Assembly (NCBI GenBank): GCA_964535575.1 | Contig: CAZHTC010000012.1 | Location: forward strand, 6,027-70,026 | Reading direction: 5' to 3' | Source of the DNA: an uncultured Bifidobacteriaceae bacterium | GTDB lineage: Bacteria > Bacteroidota > Bacteroidia > UKL13-3 | Length of the DNA stretch: 64,000 bases | In this document: positions 12,001-18,000 of the stretch, in pieces | Layout of the letters: each line of letters begins with the position of its first letter | Numbering within the stretch: the first letter of the stretch is position 1 | Program-made: the position numbers

Positions 12001-15000
12001 AATTCGTTTAGGCGCTCCCCCAAAATATACCAACCCGAATGAATGAAATTATCAAATGAGGTTTTTAATTCATCCGAGATATCGGCATTCATTTGTTTAA
12101 AGGAAAGAAACGGGACCTCCATTTTTTGCGCGTATGTAATTAATGCTACTGATTTGCCGGATTTATTTCCACCTGGTAAGAAATTCTTCTTTATCACGAA
12201 TATAATCGCTTGCCTGATACTTGGTGGAGGCAAGTGCTAACTGAACTGCATTGTGAGAATATTCCATTGTATGCCACACGTTTGGAGGAATATAAACTCC
12301 TTGTTGAGGAGATTGTAGGGTAAATTGTTTTTTTTCTCCTTGTGCACTTTCAGTTGTTACAATAATTTTTCCTGAAACAGCAATAAGAATCTGTTCAGTG
12401 TGGTGATGAGCATGCCGTCCTCTAGTAATACTTTCAGGGGTATAATAGGTCCAAAATATGCGTTGAACAATAAACGGAAGTTGATTGTTTTCTGCAACGG
12501 TGATATAACCGATAGCCGATTCACCGATTTTCCCAAACTCTATTATGTAGGGAGATTGATAGTCCATTTTGTGAATGTGTTGTTGTTTTCAATCTCCATT
12601 AGGATATTATCTATAGCTAATTCAGAGTTGAGTAAATCTGATATGGGTGATTTTTTTACCTTAAAATATGCCAGAAATGAATCTAATAACTTTGCTTTTG
12701 GCCGGTTAGTCACAAGTAAATTATTGAATCAGGAACTTTCTGATTTGGGTAGATTCTTTTGATATAATTCTAATCAGATACGAACCCTTAGCTAAACCTG
12801 ACGTATTCAATTTGAACAACGAATTACCTGTATTATCAAACTGGCTTATGCTAAAAGTTCTTCCTGATAAATCAGTAATTTCAACGGTAACTTTACCCTT
12901 AACCGATCCGGCAGAAATAGTAACTTCCGACTGTGCGGGGTTTGGGAAAATAGTTATCCCGGTTGTTTCATTTGAAACTTTTACCATTCTAACTTCTGAA
13001 TAGCTTACATCGCCATTAAAATCCTGTTGCTTTATACGGTAAAATATAACTGCTTTGCCTGTCAGTTCATCATCACTATCAACAAACCGATAGGTTGAAA
13101 CGGTACTGGTGTTTTCGTTGCCTTTAATGAAGTTTACGGAAACAAAGTGAATGCCGTCAAATGAACGTTCTACTTCAAATCCTTTATTATTTACTTCACT
13201 TGCTGTTGACCATTCCAGTAAGTTTGCGTTTTTATCAATAGATTTTGCATCAAATGATAGCCAGGTAACAGGTAATGGATTTGTACCTCCGGTTGCATTC
13301 GCTAAAACAAAATCGCTGAAGCTGGTAAAATTCGTTGTTGATTCGATTGTACCGCTTGTAACAGCACTCCCGGTTCCTCCCAAATCAACCCAATTTGCGC
13401 CACTTTCCTTAAGTATTCTAAGGGAGGAAGTTTGGTTTACACCATCATCAGCTTCGTAGGTAATGGTAACTTTTGCTGCGGTAACGGCAGAAGGGCCACC
13501 ATTACTGATGGTAAAATATCTCATGGGTGAAACGTGTGTAATTCCACCGGGTAAAGTTCTGGATGGAGGCGCTGTGTTAAACATTTCAGCCGTATAGGTA
13601 GTAGCCGAACCACTACTTTGAGTTACCTTTAAGATAACCGGCCTGTAATCAGTTCCTTTACCAATTGGGAAGGTAAGGGGAGTTAATGAACCGGTGTTGG
13701 TATTTTGAATAGACAGTGGACCATTAATAAATGCTGATGCAGAGGCCCCGGAAATTGAACTTCCGGCACCCATAATCAGGATGTTTGTACTTGATGTAGT
13801 TAAAATGTCATTTAAAGTAAGGGTGGAGTTAACGGTAATTGGTTGGTTTAATGTAGTTGGTATATTTACAGTAAAGTTGCCATAGGTAGCAGTTGAGGCA
13901 GCACTTGCAATACCACCATTTCCAAGGGTACTTCCGTTATTTGAAATAACGGTTCCATTAATTGTAACTGTGTTAGCGGCAATTTTGCAGGCAGTTCCAG
14001 ATGGCATGTTTACAATTCCACCTGAATTCACTGTAAAAGTACCGAATCTTTCAGATGCAGTTCTGGCAATAGTAACACTATTCATATTTAATGTAGCCCC
14101 GGAGTTTATAGTTAATGAGCCTGTTCCAACACTTCCGTTATCTGGTCTTATTGCACCGCCCGCTGTAATATCCATAGTCACCTGTCCCGAAGCAATGGTA
14201 ATACTTCCGGCCCTTAGGTTTGTTTTGATCGTAGCAACATCAGAAGCGGAGTTCATGGCAAATTCAAGCGTCCATCCATTAAAATTGCTTGGAACCCCCC
14301 ATTCACCGGTTGAAGTCACATCCCTTGATGTTCCTGTAATTTGAATTTTGCCTGTACCTGTTTTAATAAAATCAGCATGATTGTTTAATCCGGTGGAATT
14401 AGCACCGGGAACATTTCCTTTAGAACCGGTGTATGTTCTTAATTTACCGGAAACGGCAAGGGTGAACGATTGGCAATTTAATCGACCTACATCTGTGCTA
14501 AGGTCTGCATTTAGATGCAAGTCTTTACATGCCGAGTTGGCAGAAAGTACCACCGAGTCCCCATCCTGAATATACACATTTGTGCTGGAAGTAGGTGTGG
14601 AAGCAGCGGCTACCCAGGCCGAACCATTCCATGTTTCCCATGTTGCGGCAGTACTCCAGTCCCCATCGGTGGCGGTTCTGAAATCACCGGAATTGATTTG
14701 CGTAATATTTGCGAGGACAAAATCGCCAAACGTGGTAAAGTTAGTAGTAGAGGTGATGGTTCCTGCCAATGAGGTAGCGCCCGAAGCACCAATATCGTCC
14801 CATGCGGTTGAGTTTTCGTGTGCAATTTTAAGAGCAGTATGATTGCTTATTCCATCATCGGCACCATAATCCAAAGCAATGGTATTTGTACCGGTAACGG
14901 TAGAACCGGATCCTTTCACCACATTCCAATACCTCATGGACGATACGTTGGTAAGTGTTCCCAGAGTTCTTGAAGTAGGGGCTGTGTTAAAAAGTTCAGC

Positions 15001-18000
15001 TGTATACACCGTTGGGGTGGCATCGGTATGATTTAGATTAAGGACTAATTTTCTGTAATAGGCGCCTTTCCCGATTTGAAAGGTAAGGGTAGGAGTGGTA
15101 GAGGCAGCGGTAAGAGCCAGCGGGCCATCAATATAATTGGAAGAAGAAGCACCAGAAATAGAACCGGAAGCTCCCATGGTCAGCAGGTTGGATGATGAAG
15201 TTGTGAGTTTACCTCCAAGTGTAAGTGTTCCACTTACGGAAATGGCAGAACTCAAAGTAATAGAGGTGCCGGTTGTCAGGTTTGCGTAGGTGTTTGTAGT
15301 AGCTGCGCTGGAAATGCTACCATTTCCTAGCATGGTGGTGCTATTACAAATTACAGTACCGTTTAACGTTACTGTACTGGCAGCAATTTTACCTGCTACA
15401 CCAGATGGAATGGTTAACGTAGCACCAGAATTTAAGGTAAAAGTACCGAATCTTTCAGATGCAGTTCTGGCAATAGTAACACTATTCATATTTAATGTAG
15501 CCCCGGAGTTTATAGTTAATGAGCCTGTTCCAACACTTCCGTTATCTGGTCTTATTGCACCGCCCGCTGTAATATCCATAGTCACCTGTCCCGAAGCAAT
15601 GGTAATACTTCCGGCCCTTAGGTTTGTTTTGATCGTAGCAACATCAGAAGCGGAGTTCATGGCAAATTCAAGCGTCCATCCATTAAAATTGCTTGGAACC
15701 CCCCATTCACCGGTTGAAGTCACATCCCTTGATGTTCCTGTAATTTGAATTTTGCCTGTACCTGTTTTAATAAAATCAGCATGATTGTTTAATCCGGTGG
15801 AATTAGCACCGGGAACATTTCCTTTAGAACCGGTGTATGTTCTTAATTTACCGGAAACGGCAAGGGTGAACGATTGGCAATTTAATCGACCTACATCTGT
15901 GCTAAGGTCTGCATTTAGATGCAAGTCTTTACATGCCGAGTTGGCAGAAAGTACCACCGAGTCCCCATCCTGAATATACACATTTGTGCTGGAAGTAGGT
16001 GTGGAAGCAGCGGCTACCCAGGCCGAACCATTCCATGTTTCCCATGTTGCGGCAGTACTCCAGTCCCCATCGGTGGCGGTTCTGAAATCACCGGAATTGA
16101 TTTGCGTAATATTTGCGAGGACAAAATCGCCAAACGTGGTAAAGTTAGTAGTAGAGGTGATGGTTCCTGCCAATGAGGTAGCGCCCGAAGCACCAATATC
16201 GTCCCATGCGGTTGAGTTTTCGTGTGCAATTTTAAGAGCAGTATGATTGCTTATTCCATCATCGGCACCATAATCCAAAGCAATGGTATTTGTACCGGTA
16301 ACGGTAGAACCGGATCCTTTCACCACATTCCAATACCTCATGGACGATACGTTGGTAAGTGTTCCCAGAGTTCTTGAAGTAGGGGCTGTGTTAAAAAGTT
16401 CAGCTGTATACACCGTTGGGGTGGCATCGGTATGATTTAGATTAAGGACTAATTTTCTGTAATAGGCGCCTTTCCCGATTTGAAAGGTAAGGGTAGGAGT
16501 GGTAGAGGCAGCGGTAAGAGCCAGCGGGCCATCAATATAATTGGAAGAAGAAGCACCAGAAATAGAACCGGAAGCTCCCATGGTCAGCAGGTTGGATGAT
16601 GAAGTTGTGAGTTTACCTCCAAGTGTAAGTGTTCCACTTACGGAAATGGCAGAACTCAAAGTAATAGAGGTGCCGGTTGTCAGGTTTGCGTAGGTGTTTG
16701 TAGTAGCTGCGCTGGAAATGCTACCATTTCCTAGCATGGTGGTGCTATTACAAATTACAGTACCGTTTAACGTTACTGTACTGGCAGCAATTTTACCTGC
16801 TACACCAGATGGAATGGTTAACGTAGCACCAGAATTTAACGTAAAAAGTGAAAACCTCTCCGAGGCAGTTCGCGCTACGGTTGTACTGTTTAGATTTAGA
16901 GTAGCACCTGAATTAACAGTGAGTGTACCAGTTCCAACGCTTCCATTATCCGGTCTCAATGCGCCTCCTACACCAATATCCATGGTAACAGTACCGGCAG
17001 CAATGATAATACTTCCTGCCCGGATGTTTGTTTTGATGGTAGCCACATCTGAAGAAGAATTCATGGCAAATTCAAGTGTCCATCCATTAAAATTGGTTGG
17101 AATCCCCCATTCACCGGCTAAGGTAACGTCCCTAGTAGTACCAGTAATTTGGATTTTACCGGTACCGGTTTTAATAAAATCTGCATGATTATTTGTACCG
17201 ACTACGCTTGTACCCGGAATGGTTCCATGGCTACCGGTATAGGTTCTAAGTTTACCAAATACTGACAAAGTGAATGATTGACAATTCAAGCGACCTACAT
17301 CTGTACTTAAGTCCGCATTTAAGTGTAAATCTTTACAAGAAGAATTTCCAGTAAGAACTACAGAATCGCCATCCTGAATAAAAACGGCAGTACTTGAGGT
17401 TGGGGTTCCGGAAGCAGCATTCCAAGTTGACCCATTAAATGTTTCCCAGGTTGAGGTTGAACTCCAGTCGCCATCAGTTGCAGTTCTGAAATCACCTGCT
17501 ACCTGAGCTCTGGAAACGTTACAAAAAAGGAATAAAAATATTAGTAGAGTATGGAAAACTTTCATACGGTTTTTGGTTTATTAAAATGTCGTAACAAAAT
17601 TAACCGTAATTCTCAGAAAAATCCAAATTCTATCGGTTTTTTAATCCCCAAAATGTTATCAAATCATTTCCGGTGAATGCACTTAATTGAATTAAGTCAT
17701 CTTTAAGTAAATCAGTTAGTTTTGATTTAAACGAATCTCTCAACGGTTGAAATCTGTTCATTTTAATTTCGAACAATGACCTGAACTGCCATTTTACTGA
17801 CCGGGGGAGAGAATATATTATAGGAAGTCGCGCTATTATAGTTCCTAATTTAGTTAGGTTTCTTACTTCCTCTGTTTTGTTTTTATGGGTTTCTAATAAA
17901 ACACTTTCATGGTCGCCAAGATGTCGAATGTTAAGAAAATCAAAGATACTGTTCAATGTTTGTTGTCTGTTTGAAATGAAATCTTCAAACAAGCAAATAT

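What the first reader, a model, noticed from the sequence alone, without database searches (positions are those of the whole stretch)
12721..17565. Giant T9SS-type secreted protein made of three 468-aa tandem units, embedded on-strand inside a polysaccharide biosynthesis locus
A 1614-aa ORF with a signal peptide, three consecutive 1404-nt units and a type-A T9SS sorting domain sits between a sulfotransferase/methyltransferase/GT2 block upstream and an FdtA/FdtB/GT2 block downstream, all on the minus strand. It looks co-transcribed with sugar-modifying enzymes. The unit is Ser/Thr/Asn/Gly-rich, with beta-helix-like periodicity (short x-T-x-T/S-x-N strands), and I cannot assign it to any named domain. 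A large surface protein inside a glycan locus suggests either a glycosylated adhesin or S-layer-like component whose glycan is made by the neighbours, or a protein-anchored polysaccharide. Neither arrangement is a described type for T9SS cargo.
Basis: partly seen in the sequence, partly recalled or inferred. Interest (0 to 1): 0.75.

Follow-up and report, generated by a model that had tools for sequence, protein, structure and literature searches.

The report
Length-variable T9SS surface fibre in polysaccharide locus
An uncultured Bacteroidia bacterium encodes a large secreted cell-surface protein built from repeated beta-helix modules, whose gene has stayed next to a sulfotransferase inside a polysaccharide-export locus in related lineages and has gained an extra module at least twice; it is a moderately unusual arrangement of ordinary parts.

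Summary
ORF 12721-17565 (-) encodes 1614 aa: signal peptide, three ~468-aa units, a spacer and a type-A T9SS sorting domain. It sits between sulfotransferase/GT2/Wzc/Wza genes and FdtA/FdtB/GT2 genes. The three units are not equivalent. The conserved form has two units (P0001, 1146 aa, 90% identical). The window allele adds one exact in-frame 1404-nt tandem duplication whose unique junction an assembler could not invent. A sister lineage carries an independent, diverged three-unit allele alongside a two-unit allele, so unit number is polymorphic. Each unit models confidently (pLDDT 92.7) as a right-handed beta-helix plus a GAIN/ZU5-like beta-sandwich. Its nearest solved structures are adhesins and non-catalytic polysaccharide-binding beta-helices. 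The module has no Pfam name but occurs in about 12,800 protein clusters. Sulfotransferase-then-fibre adjacency recurs in seven fetched loci (about four sequence types) at 58-90% identity, even where a neighbouring glycosyltransferase was swapped. Other family members are not near glycan genes. Most likely this is a non-catalytic surface fibre or adhesin acting together with the locus's polysaccharide.

The parts
12721..17565 (-). Whole ORF: 1614-aa T9SS cargo protein (signal peptide, 3 units, spacer, CTD)
   Evidence: the exact sequence is on record only in the NCBI MAG (72,131-nt contig)
17506..17565 (-). Signal peptide, residues 1-20 (MKVFHTLLIFLFLFCNVSRA, then Gln)
   Evidence: read from the translation; no predictor was run
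16093..17496 (-). Unit 1 (residues 24-491): type A first half plus type A second half
14689..16092 (-). Unit 2 (residues 492-959): hybrid with the first half identical to unit 3 and the second half identical to unit 1
13276..14688 (-). Unit 3 (residues 960-1430): type B. Modelled as a beta-helix (about residues 1-320 of the unit) plus a GAIN/ZU5-like beta-sandwich (about 325-465)
14033..15435 (.). First copy of the exact 1403-nt repeat
15437..16839 (.). Second copy of the exact 1403-nt repeat. Junction base 15436 (G) differs from both parental registers (T at 14032, C at 16840). Only GTAAAA is shared at the breakpoint
12952..13275 (-). Spacer domain of about 108 aa (residues 1431-1538) between the last unit and the CTD, with no family match
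12724..12951 (-). Type-A T9SS C-terminal sorting domain (residues 1539-1614)
   Evidence: PF18962 E 2.8e-13; TIGR04183 E 8.4e-12
17595..17627 (-). Bacteroidetes-type promoter-like motif TTTG-N21-TAATTTTG in the 64-nt gap upstream of the ORF
   Evidence: one of only 4 matches in the 64-kb window; conserved in L001 and L004, with a -7-like box in L005 and L006; function not shown
17630..18514 (-). Sulfotransferase, immediately upstream of the orthologous gene in seven fetched loci
   Evidence: PF00685 and PF13469; synteny
18459..19199 (-). 246-aa ORF with no family match (LDLGSG motif suggests a SAM methyltransferase)
19150..20460 (-). GT2 glycosyltransferase (variable: only 24-29% identical in L002 and L005)
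20461..21750 (-). Nucleotide-sugar 6-dehydrogenase, closest to the TviB type (UDP-GlcNAc 6-dehydrogenase)
   Evidence: 497 bits, below the equivalog cut-off of 592
21747..24170 (-). Wzc-type polysaccharide co-polymerase / tyrosine autokinase
24172..24972 (-). Wza-type outer-membrane polysaccharide export protein
12163..12567 (-). FdtA-type 3,4-ketoisomerase
   Evidence: PF05523 E 2.6e-36
11016..12233 (-). DegT/DnrJ/EryC1 aminotransferase (FdtB-like); the listed TTG start probably lies too far upstream
   Evidence: the L002 orthologue is 368 aa
10097..11023 (-). GT2 of the ArnC/PgfS type (polyprenyl-phosphate sugar transferase) with C-terminal transmembrane helices
9565..10110 (-). UpxY-family transcription antiterminator
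   Evidence: NF033644, 138 bits against a cut-off of 100
45230..49300 (+). Paralogue: 1356-aa T9SS cargo with one unit (about 49% identical) split by an insertion, located next to ClpB and not in a glycan locus

Best explanation
The gene encodes a non-catalytic cell-surface fibre or adhesin.

Inferred route, based on known T9SS biology: the protein crosses the inner membrane through Sec. It folds in the periplasm and is exported by the type IX secretion system through its type-A C-terminal domain. It is probably then anchored by its new C-terminus to a surface lipopolysaccharide, with the N-terminus pointing outward.

The shaft is a string of modules. Each module is a capped right-handed beta-helix followed by a GAIN/ZU5-like beta-sandwich. 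This unnamed module is very common in Bacteroidota surface proteins.

The normal state in this lineage is two modules. Recombination between the tandem modules adds one in frame. The window allele carries a very recent, still identical 1404-nt duplication, and a sister lineage carries an older one. Fibre length therefore varies between strains.

The gene has its own promoter-like motif. It has been kept directly downstream of a polysaccharide sulfotransferase, at the seam between a Wza/Wzc-led block and a UpxY-associated block of an exopolysaccharide or capsule locus. That locus's enzymes point to a sulfated polymer containing an N-acetyl-hexosaminuronic acid and a 3-amino-3,6-dideoxyhexose.

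The most likely reason for the linkage is that fibre and polymer work together at the surface. The beta-helices may bind or organise the cell's own anionic polysaccharide as a matrix or floc scaffold. Alternatively, the fibre may need to project through that layer, which would make module number matter.

Shown: architecture, fold, export signals, the duplication, purifying selection and conserved synteny. Inferred: anchoring, lack of catalysis, binding to the polymer and the role of fibre length.
For: - Export signals: signal peptide and type-A CTD. Eight of 10 sampled family members also carry the CTD.
- No sign of an active site: the 24-sequence unit alignment has no invariant column, and only two nearly invariant leucines.
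- Adhesin-like family behaviour: 12,763 clusters, 1-16 matched stretches per protein, lengths of 420-5177 aa among the best 150 listed, and a paralogue 30 kb away.
- Two-unit ancestor: P0001 is 1146 aa (1614 minus 468), and P0002 and P0003 are 1159 aa. The collapsed window gene is gap-free collinear with the L001 gene at 85.6% nt and 93.5% aa identity, which indicates purifying selection.
- Real duplication: the junction is unique, with only 6 nt of microhomology and no shared repeat of 20 nt or more between units 1 and 3.
- Independent expansion: L052 and L053 carry a 1633-aa three-unit allele with diverged copies (longest exact run 146 nt). The two-unit L002 allele comes from the same sample as L052.
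- Linkage: the sulfotransferase lies directly upstream in L001, L002, L004, L005, L006, L052 and L053. This holds while GT2a is replaced (24-29% identity), the 246-aa ORF gives no match in L005, and UpxY changes position.
- Promoter motif.
Against: - No binding to any polysaccharide has been tested.
- The protein is slightly acidic (D+E 6.3% against K+R 5.6%), which does not favour binding a polyanion unless a cation bridges them.
- The loci that share the synteny belong to one lineage of uncultured Bacteroidia. Housekeeping neighbours are 92-97% identical, so inherited gene order alone could explain much of it.
- In the sister lineage the gene lies exactly between two blocks, a position where an unrelated insertion would be tolerated.
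- Other family members are not near glycan genes: 1 of 31 loci.
- Copy number in the window allele rests on a single assembly.
Confidence: 0.45

Rival explanations
1. Hitch-hiker. This is an ordinary T9SS adhesin gene with its own promoter. It landed at a seam between two operons of a polysaccharide locus in the ancestor of this lineage and has simply been inherited there. It has no functional tie to the polymer.
For: A promoter-like motif lies directly upstream. In L002, L052 and L053 the gene sits exactly between the sulfotransferase block and a UpxY gene. All syntenic loci belong to one related group (POT transporter 92-97% identical). The family in general is not linked to glycan genes: 1 of 31 loci. 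A paralogue lies next to ClpB. The gene's GC content (0.41-0.46) is higher than that of its neighbours (0.35-0.37), although its Thr/Ser/Gly/Ala-rich composition could explain this.
Against: The adjacency to the sulfotransferase persists down to 58% protein identity, while neighbouring genes were replaced, lost or moved. Polysaccharide loci are normally among the most rearranged parts of a genome, so a passenger gene would be expected to be lost or displaced.
Confidence: 0.3
2. Polymer-processing enzyme. The beta-helix units act as a surface-anchored lyase, hydrolase or C5-epimerase that trims or modifies the nascent polysaccharide. Comparable cases are RbmB for Vibrio VPS and AlgG or AlgE for alginate.
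Against: There is no sequence match to any PL, GH or epimerase family, or to Beta_helix/PbH1 models. No polar residue is invariant in the family alignment. Tandem multiplication of the unit and thousands of paralogous architectures are typical of adhesins, not enzymes. The top structural neighbours are non-catalytic.
Confidence: 0.12
3. Glycoprotein substrate. The Ser/Thr-rich fibre is itself decorated in the periplasm with sugars made by the neighbouring genes. An example would be a 3-amino-3,6-dideoxyhexose delivered on a polyprenyl phosphate by the ArnC/PgfS-like GT2.
For: The downstream GT2 resembles PgfS and ArnC, which load sugars onto polyprenyl phosphate for glycosylation outside the cytoplasm (E 4e-59 and 1.8e-41, below the equivalog cut-offs), and it has C-terminal transmembrane helices. 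The protein is 28% Ser+Thr. T9SS cargo are known to be O-glycosylated in other Bacteroidota (PMC11969387).
Against: The known Bacteroidota sequon is depleted: 3 observed against 8.9 +/- 2.8 expected, with none in P0002 or P0003. No GT-C-type transferase or flippase lies in the window's part of the locus. Wza and Wzc indicate export of a high-molecular-weight polymer. Homologues of the sulfotransferase occur in standard polysaccharide loci without such a protein.
Confidence: 0.08
4. The third unit is an assembly artefact and the real gene has two units.
For: The 1614-aa sequence is on record only from the NCBI MAG. Its neighbours from the same contig also appear in independent Logan assemblies. 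Exact 1.4-kb repeats are hard for short-read assemblers, and three related contigs break inside unit 1.
Against: The junction sequence is unique: it has a base found in neither parental register and only 6 nt of microhomology. No exact repeat of 20 nt or more links units 1 and 3, so a graph built from a two-unit genome has no path that creates this junction. The insertion is exactly in frame and restores a whole unit. Three-unit alleles occur independently in L052 and L053.
Confidence: 0.08

Closest known systems
Large T9SS type-A CTD surface adhesins of Bacteroidota (for example Flavobacterium johnsoniae SprB and the lectin-type adhesin RemA; named from my own knowledge, not tested here)
   Same: Sec signal peptide plus a C-terminal type-A sorting domain, very large repetitive surface proteins, and multiple paralogues per genome. 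By my recollection of the literature, RemA acts together with polysaccharides exported by Wza and Wzc.
   Different: No sequence relationship to SprB or RemA was tested. The repeat here is a 468-aa beta-helix plus beta-sandwich module with no Pfam model. As far as I know, the genes of those adhesins do not lie inside a Wza/Wzc locus; here the position is conserved.
Non-catalytic polysaccharide-binding beta-helices: L. reuteri SRRP binding region (5NXK), Caldicellulosiruptor tapirins (6N2C, 6N2B), CBM89 (7JVI), Cthe_2159 (4PHB)
   Different: Sequence identity is only 10-15%, and only 156-204 of 471 residues align. They use different secretion and anchoring routes, and none carries the GAIN/ZU5-like sandwich. 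Binding by the present protein is untested.
Vibrio cholerae rbm genes (RbmA, RbmC matrix proteins; RbmB lyase) of the VPS biofilm system
   Same: Genes for secreted proteins that bind or cut a polysaccharide are associated with that polysaccharide's biosynthesis genes. RbmB is shown to be a VPS lyase (PMC12993940) and RbmA binds VPS directly (abstract of PMC5605196). From my own knowledge, the rbm genes lie between the vps-I and vps-II clusters.
   Different: Different phylum, different folds for RbmA and RbmC, and a different secretion route. RbmB localises to the periplasm. No homology was detected or claimed. This is an analogy of arrangement only.
Type V (autotransporter / two-partner) beta-helix adhesins: Ag43, UpaB, TibA, Hap, HMW1, EtpA
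   Different: There is no beta-barrel translocator or TPS domain, and export is by T9SS. Here the helices come as discrete repeated modules separated by a beta-sandwich.
Tannerella forsythia S-layer glycoproteins TfsA and TfsB, and C-terminally LPS-linked T9SS cargo in general
   Same: T9SS cargo that are glycan-linked: a C-terminal linkage to lipopolysaccharide, and O-glycosylation at D(S/T)X (PMC11969387). That TfsA and TfsB are the S-layer is from my own knowledge.
   Different: The O-glycosylation sequon is depleted here and absent in the orthologues. There is no evidence for an S-layer. Those cargo genes are not reported inside a Wza/Wzc locus.

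Membership tests
T9SS type-A CTD cargo | C-terminal sorting domain matching TIGR04183 / PF18962 | tested here: met
   PF18962 at 50.4 bits against a cut-off of 27; TIGR04183 at 44.9 bits against a cut-off of 23
T9SS type-A CTD cargo | N-terminal Sec signal peptide | tested here: met
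   MKVFHTLLIFLFLFCNVSRA|QV read; judged by eye, no predictor was run
T9SS type-A CTD cargo | Genome encodes the T9SS machinery, and the protein is secreted and its CTD cleaved | not testable with these tools
   No T9SS core gene was identified among the roughly 34 of 57 window ORFs that were scanned. Two further CTD proteins in the window (33744-35618 and 45230-49300) make a T9SS likely
Right-handed parallel beta-helix (pectate-lyase-like fold) | Three-sheet right-handed beta-solenoid fold | tested here: met
   [not shown]
Polysaccharide lyase / GH28 / C5-epimerase enzymes | Sequence membership in a catalytic family with conserved catalytic residues | tested here: not met
   No Pfam, NCBIfam or PDB-sequence hit, and no invariant polar column in alignment A1. 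Conservation was not mapped in 3D, so a divergent active site is not excluded
G8 domain (PF10162) | Match to the Pfam G8 model at the N-terminal cap of the unit | tested here: inconclusive
   No hit in the window protein at E <= 1. Family member P0108 passes (29.5 bits against a cut-off of 22.9), and P0076 matches weakly
GAIN / ZU5-FIIND autoproteolytic domains | Beta-sandwich fold | tested here: met
   [not shown]
GAIN / ZU5-FIIND autoproteolytic domains | Conserved cleavage motif (His-Leu|Thr or His/Ser-Phe|Ser) before the last strand | tested here: not met
   The equivalent position reads FTSF[S/G]DF, with Gly in many members and no conserved His
Bacteroidota general O-glycoproteins | Enrichment or conservation of D(S/T)(A/I/L/V/M/T) sequons | tested here: not met
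   3 sites against 8.9 +/- 2.8 in shuffles; 0 in P0002 and P0003; 15 in the paralogue
Type V autotransporter adhesins | C-terminal beta-barrel translocator or N-terminal TPS domain | tested here: not met
   No such Pfam or NCBIfam match
Wza/Wzc-dependent exopolysaccharide or capsule locus (the surrounding genes) | OPX exporter, PCP tyrosine autokinase, glycosyltransferases and sugar-nucleotide enzymes | tested here: met
   Poly_export/SLBB, a Wzc-type autokinase (TIGR01007, 168.6 bits against a cut-off of 108), GT2 x2, a dehydrogenase, FdtA and DegT
Wza/Wzc-dependent exopolysaccharide or capsule locus (the surrounding genes) | Wzx flippase and Wzy polymerase | tested here: not met
   No multi-transmembrane protein lies between 389 and 24972. 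The locus runs off the window's left edge, so these genes may lie outside it
S-layer protein | Self-assembling lattice protein of very high abundance | not testable with these tools
   No sequence criterion is available and no similarity to known S-layer proteins was seen

The most novel reading that the evidence does not exclude
The fibre and the polysaccharide form a dedicated two-component surface system. In it, a T9SS-anchored beta-helix fibre specifically binds or tethers the sulfated anionic polymer made by its own locus, acting as a Bacteroidota counterpart of the Vibrio rbm/vps matrix module. Recombination between the tandem modules tunes fibre length to the thickness of that layer, which is why two- and three-unit alleles keep arising. 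This would be the first T9SS cargo shown to be a genetically hard-wired partner of a Wza/Wzc polysaccharide. It could also be relevant to floc or biofilm formation in activated sludge, where the closest relative was sampled.
Probability: 0.2. Interest if true: 0.6.

Novelty: new variant of a known kind. Interest (0 to 1): 0.38.

Why it matters
T9SS cargo and Wza/Wzc polysaccharides are both major determinants of the Bacteroidota cell surface, but they are normally studied and encoded separately. A surface fibre gene held next to a sulfotransferase inside such a locus through gene replacement and rearrangement gives a concrete, testable candidate for a protein-polysaccharide partnership in uncultured sludge and freshwater Bacteroidia. 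The work also defines a very large, unnamed surface-protein module (about 12,800 clusters): a beta-helix plus a GAIN/ZU5-like sandwich that deserves a family model. It also documents module-number polymorphism arising twice, a simple route to varying surface-fibre length. If the linkage proves to be only historical, the finding reduces to one more giant T9SS adhesin.

Tried and rejected
- Alignment A1 was too diverse for the search for related loci, so a four-sequence alignment was used.
- The afdb50 fold library was unavailable.
- Foldseek against the PDB gave no match at E <= 0.001 for the whole unit.
- A profile search of PDB sequences gave 0 hits.
- The sigma-70 promoter and terminator scan was uninformative: 43 promoter-like sites against 51 expected, and no terminator-like site in either flanking gap on the minus strand.
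- Assembly-loop artefact: rejected as the main reading because the junction is unique sequence.
- Autoproteolysis of the GAIN/ZU5-like domain: rejected because no nucleophile or His is conserved.
- Heavy O-glycosylation through the general Bacteroidota system: rejected because of sequon depletion.
- The locus as the Wbp/Vim 'linking sugar' pathway for T9SS anchoring: considered because the dehydrogenase is of the TviB/WbpA type. It was not pursued, because no GFO/IDH/MocA-type (WbpB-like) oxidoreductase was seen among the scanned genes and the FdtA/FdtB pair points to a different sugar.
- Literature searches for T9SS together with sulfotransferase, or with Wzc and exopolysaccharide, found no precedent and nothing relevant.

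Full report

Yes. The window has a 1614-aa ORF at 12721-17565 on the minus strand. Its N-terminus (MKVFHTLLIFLFLFCNVSRA, then Gln) reads as a Sec signal peptide. The motif GDFRTATDGDWS recurs at residues 24, 492 and 960. The C-terminus matches the T9SS type-A sorting domain: PF18962 at E 2.8e-13 and TIGR04183 at E 8.4e-12. No Pfam or NCBIfam model matches the repeat unit.

The neighbours on the same strand form a polysaccharide locus. Upstream in the direction of transcription are Wza, a Wzc-type tyrosine autokinase, a nucleotide-sugar 6-dehydrogenase closest to TviB (UDP-GlcNAc 6-dehydrogenase), a GT2, a 246-aa ORF with no match and a sulfotransferase. Downstream are FdtA, a DegT-family aminotransferase, an ArnC/PgfS-like GT2 and a UpxY antiterminator. 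Beyond those lie an epimerase, a carbamoyltransferase and nonulosonic-acid-type genes such as NeuB.

**2. The three units are two old units plus one new copy.**

At an offset of 1404 nt, window 14033-15435 equals 15437-16839 without a single difference. Unit 2 therefore has the first half of unit 3 and the second half of unit 1. The closest relative, P0001 from an activated-sludge metagenome, is 90% identical and 1146 aa long, which is exactly 1614 minus 468. P0002 and P0003 (58% identical) are 1159 aa and also have two units. Deleting one copy from the window gene gives 3441 nt, which aligns without gaps to the L001 gene. Identity is 85.6% at the nucleotide level and 93.5% at the amino-acid level, the pattern expected for a gene under purifying selection.

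*Is the extra copy an assembly artefact?* The 1614-aa sequence is on record only from the NCBI MAG (a 72-kb contig), while its neighbours are also found in independent Logan assemblies. So there is no independent support. However, the breakpoint is unique sequence. The junction base (G at 15436) differs from both parental registers (T at 14032, C at 16840), and only GTAAAA is shared. No exact repeat of 20 nt or more links units 1 and 3. A graph assembler cannot produce such a junction from a two-unit genome, so reads must contain it. What remains unverified is the number of copies (three, or more) and whether the population is mixed.

*Does it happen elsewhere?* Yes. In the P0002 lineage, two long contigs (L052 and L053, 118 and 98 kb) carry a 1633-aa three-unit allele. 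Contig L002, from the same sample as L052, carries the 1159-aa two-unit allele. The middle unit there is again a hybrid: its first half is 99% identical to unit 3, and its second half is of the unit-1 type at 86-93%. That is what unequal exchange between tandem units produces. The copies have diverged (longest exact run 146 nt), so this is an older and separate event. Unit number is therefore polymorphic in this gene. Three related short-read contigs (L004, L005, L006) end inside unit 1, as expected for a repeat that is hard to assemble.

**3. What is the unit?**

An AlphaFold2 model built on a 24-sequence alignment is confident (pLDDT 92.7, pTM 0.90). It shows a right-handed parallel beta-helix over about residues 1-320, followed by a beta-sandwich over about 325-465.

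phmmer shows that the helix part and the sandwich part also occur separately in other proteins. A profile search of 1.84 billion representative proteins finds the unit in 12,763 clusters, 1,495 of them at E <= 1e-30. Among the best 150 listed, proteins are 420-5177 aa long with 1-16 matched stretches. Eight of 10 sampled members end in a T9SS CTD, and two touch the Pfam G8 model at the N-terminal cap.

The window itself holds a paralogue at 45230-49300. It has one unit at about 49% identity, split by an insertion, and it sits next to ClpB with no glycan genes nearby; its orthologue P0004 has the same context. The family alignment has no invariant polar residue. Taken together this is the profile of a modular surface adhesin or fibre, not of an enzyme. 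Catalysis is not formally excluded, because conservation could not be mapped onto the model.

**4. Is the link to the polysaccharide locus meaningful?**

For:
- In seven fetched loci the orthologous gene lies directly downstream of the sulfotransferase (L001, L002, L004, L005, L006, L052, L053).
- Wherever the contig reaches far enough (all but the 1.5-kb L006), a Wzc gene, the dehydrogenase and a GT2 lie further upstream. Wza is also present except in L004, whose contig starts inside Wzc.
- This holds down to 58% protein identity.
- It holds even though the GT2 next to it has been replaced (24-29% identity), the 246-aa ORF gives no match in L005, an acetyltransferase has been added, and UpxY sits in a different place.

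Against:
- All these loci come from one group of uncultured Bacteroidia. A neighbouring POT transporter is 92-97% identical, so shared descent explains part of the pattern.
- In the sister lineage the gene sits precisely between the sulfotransferase block and a UpxY gene.
- A Bacteroidetes-type promoter motif lies in the 64-nt upstream gap. It is one of only four matches in the window and is conserved in L001 and L004, with a -7-like box in L005 and L006.
- Of 31 non-orthologous family loci of 10 kb or more, only one has any polysaccharide-type gene nearby.
- More distant homologues of the sulfotransferase (37-43% identical) sit in ordinary polysaccharide loci without such a protein. The sulfotransferase is therefore a polymer enzyme, and the pairing is specific to this lineage.

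**5. Mechanism.**

Best reading (0.45): a non-catalytic, T9SS-exported, C-terminally anchored fibre of beta-helix modules. It works together with the locus's sulfated, uronic-acid-containing polymer, either by binding and organising it or by projecting through it. Fibre length is changed by recombination between modules. The export route and anchoring are inferred from established T9SS biology (summarised in PMC11969387). Binding to the polymer is inferred only from the nearest structural neighbours and the synteny.

Rivals:
- an unrelated adhesin gene sitting at an operon seam (0.30)
- a surface-anchored lyase, hydrolase or epimerase for the polymer, like RbmB in Vibrio (PMC12993940) (0.12)
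- a glycoprotein decorated by its neighbours (0.08)

The glycoprotein idea gains a little from the ArnC/PgfS-like GT2. It loses from the depletion of the Bacteroidota O-glycosylation sequon (3 against 8.9 +/- 2.8, with none in P0002 or P0003) and from the absence of a GT-C transferase in the window. On a separate axis, I put the chance that the third unit is an artefact at 0.08.

**6. Comparison with what is known, and novelty.**

By its defining sequence features the protein is a member of the T9SS type-A cargo class, and it has the pectate-lyase-like beta-helix fold. It is not a member of any named catalytic, autotransporter, G8 (inconclusive) or GAIN-type autoproteolytic family.

What I could not find described is a T9SS cargo gene conserved inside a Wza/Wzc locus. 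The nearest analogy of arrangement is the Vibrio rbm/vps system.

I rate this a new variant of a known kind, with interest 0.38. It is a well-supported, tidy case with a testable hypothesis and a large unnamed domain family. Its parts are ordinary, and the functional link is unproven.

Noticed in passing
window 45230-49300 (+) and 43079-45196 (+): A 1356-aa T9SS CTD protein carries one copy of the same unit (about 49% identical) split by an insertion of about 80 aa. It has 15 O-glycosylation sequons, against 3 in the finding's protein. A 705-aa ORF with no Pfam match precedes it. The same pair (694 aa followed by 1346 aa), followed by ClpB, a SPOUT methyltransferase and another methyltransferase, recurs in L003.
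   Followed up: partly
[not shown]
   Followed up: partly
family-wide: The 468-aa module has no Pfam or NCBIfam model, yet it matches 12,763 clusters at 50% identity (1,495 at E <= 1e-30), mostly in T9SS CTD proteins. Some members reach the Pfam G8 model at the N-terminal cap, which hints that the cap is a divergent G8 domain.
   Followed up: partly
window 9565-10110 (-) compared with L002 10932-11450 and L052 15808-16326: The UpxY antiterminator gene occupies different positions in the two lineages. In the window it follows FdtA, FdtB and GT2. In L002 and L052 it lies directly after the fibre gene and before FdtA. The 179-aa ORF after it in the window (8915-9454) looks like a winged-helix regulator and is 69% identical in L002.
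   Followed up: no
window 11016-12233 (-): The listed TTG start of the FdtB-like aminotransferase overlaps FdtA by 71 nt. The Pfam match begins at residue 52 and the L002 orthologue is 368 aa, so the true start is probably about 35-50 codons downstream.
   Followed up: no
window 25021-32258 (-): Three tandem POT-family peptide transporters (495, 541 and 588 aa) lie directly downstream, on the same strand, of a DPP-IV-type S9 dipeptidyl peptidase (735 aa). This looks like a peptide-uptake cluster, and it abuts the polysaccharide locus; the arrangement is conserved in L005, L052 and L053.
   Followed up: no
window 389-7938 (-): The locus continues with NeuB, a PglD-like acetyltransferase, a second DegT aminotransferase, a 4,6-dehydratase-like enzyme, an SxtJ-like small membrane protein, a GDSL acylhydrolase and a carbamoyltransferase. 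This suggests a nonulosonic acid and carbamoylated or acylated sugars. The locus runs off the window's left edge, and no Wzx or Wzy was seen.
   Followed up: no
window 33744-35618 (-): A third T9SS CTD protein in the window (624 aa, with a weak BNR-repeat hit).
   Followed up: no
L054 (Ilyomonas limi SZQL01000009.1): This polysaccharide locus holds Wza, Wzc, six sulfotransferase genes, glycosyltransferases and an ABC transporter. It ends with a 516-aa gene that gives a faint pectate-lyase/epimerase-type beta-helix hit. This may be an independent case of a beta-helix protein at the edge of a sulfated-polysaccharide locus.
   Followed up: no
window units compared with L052, P0002 and P0003 units: First halves of units are more alike within a genome (81-87%) than between lineages (63-67%). 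Second halves of the B type keep a cross-lineage signal (56-58% against 48-50%). This suggests partial homogenisation (gene conversion) of the first halves on an old two-unit architecture.
   Followed up: partly
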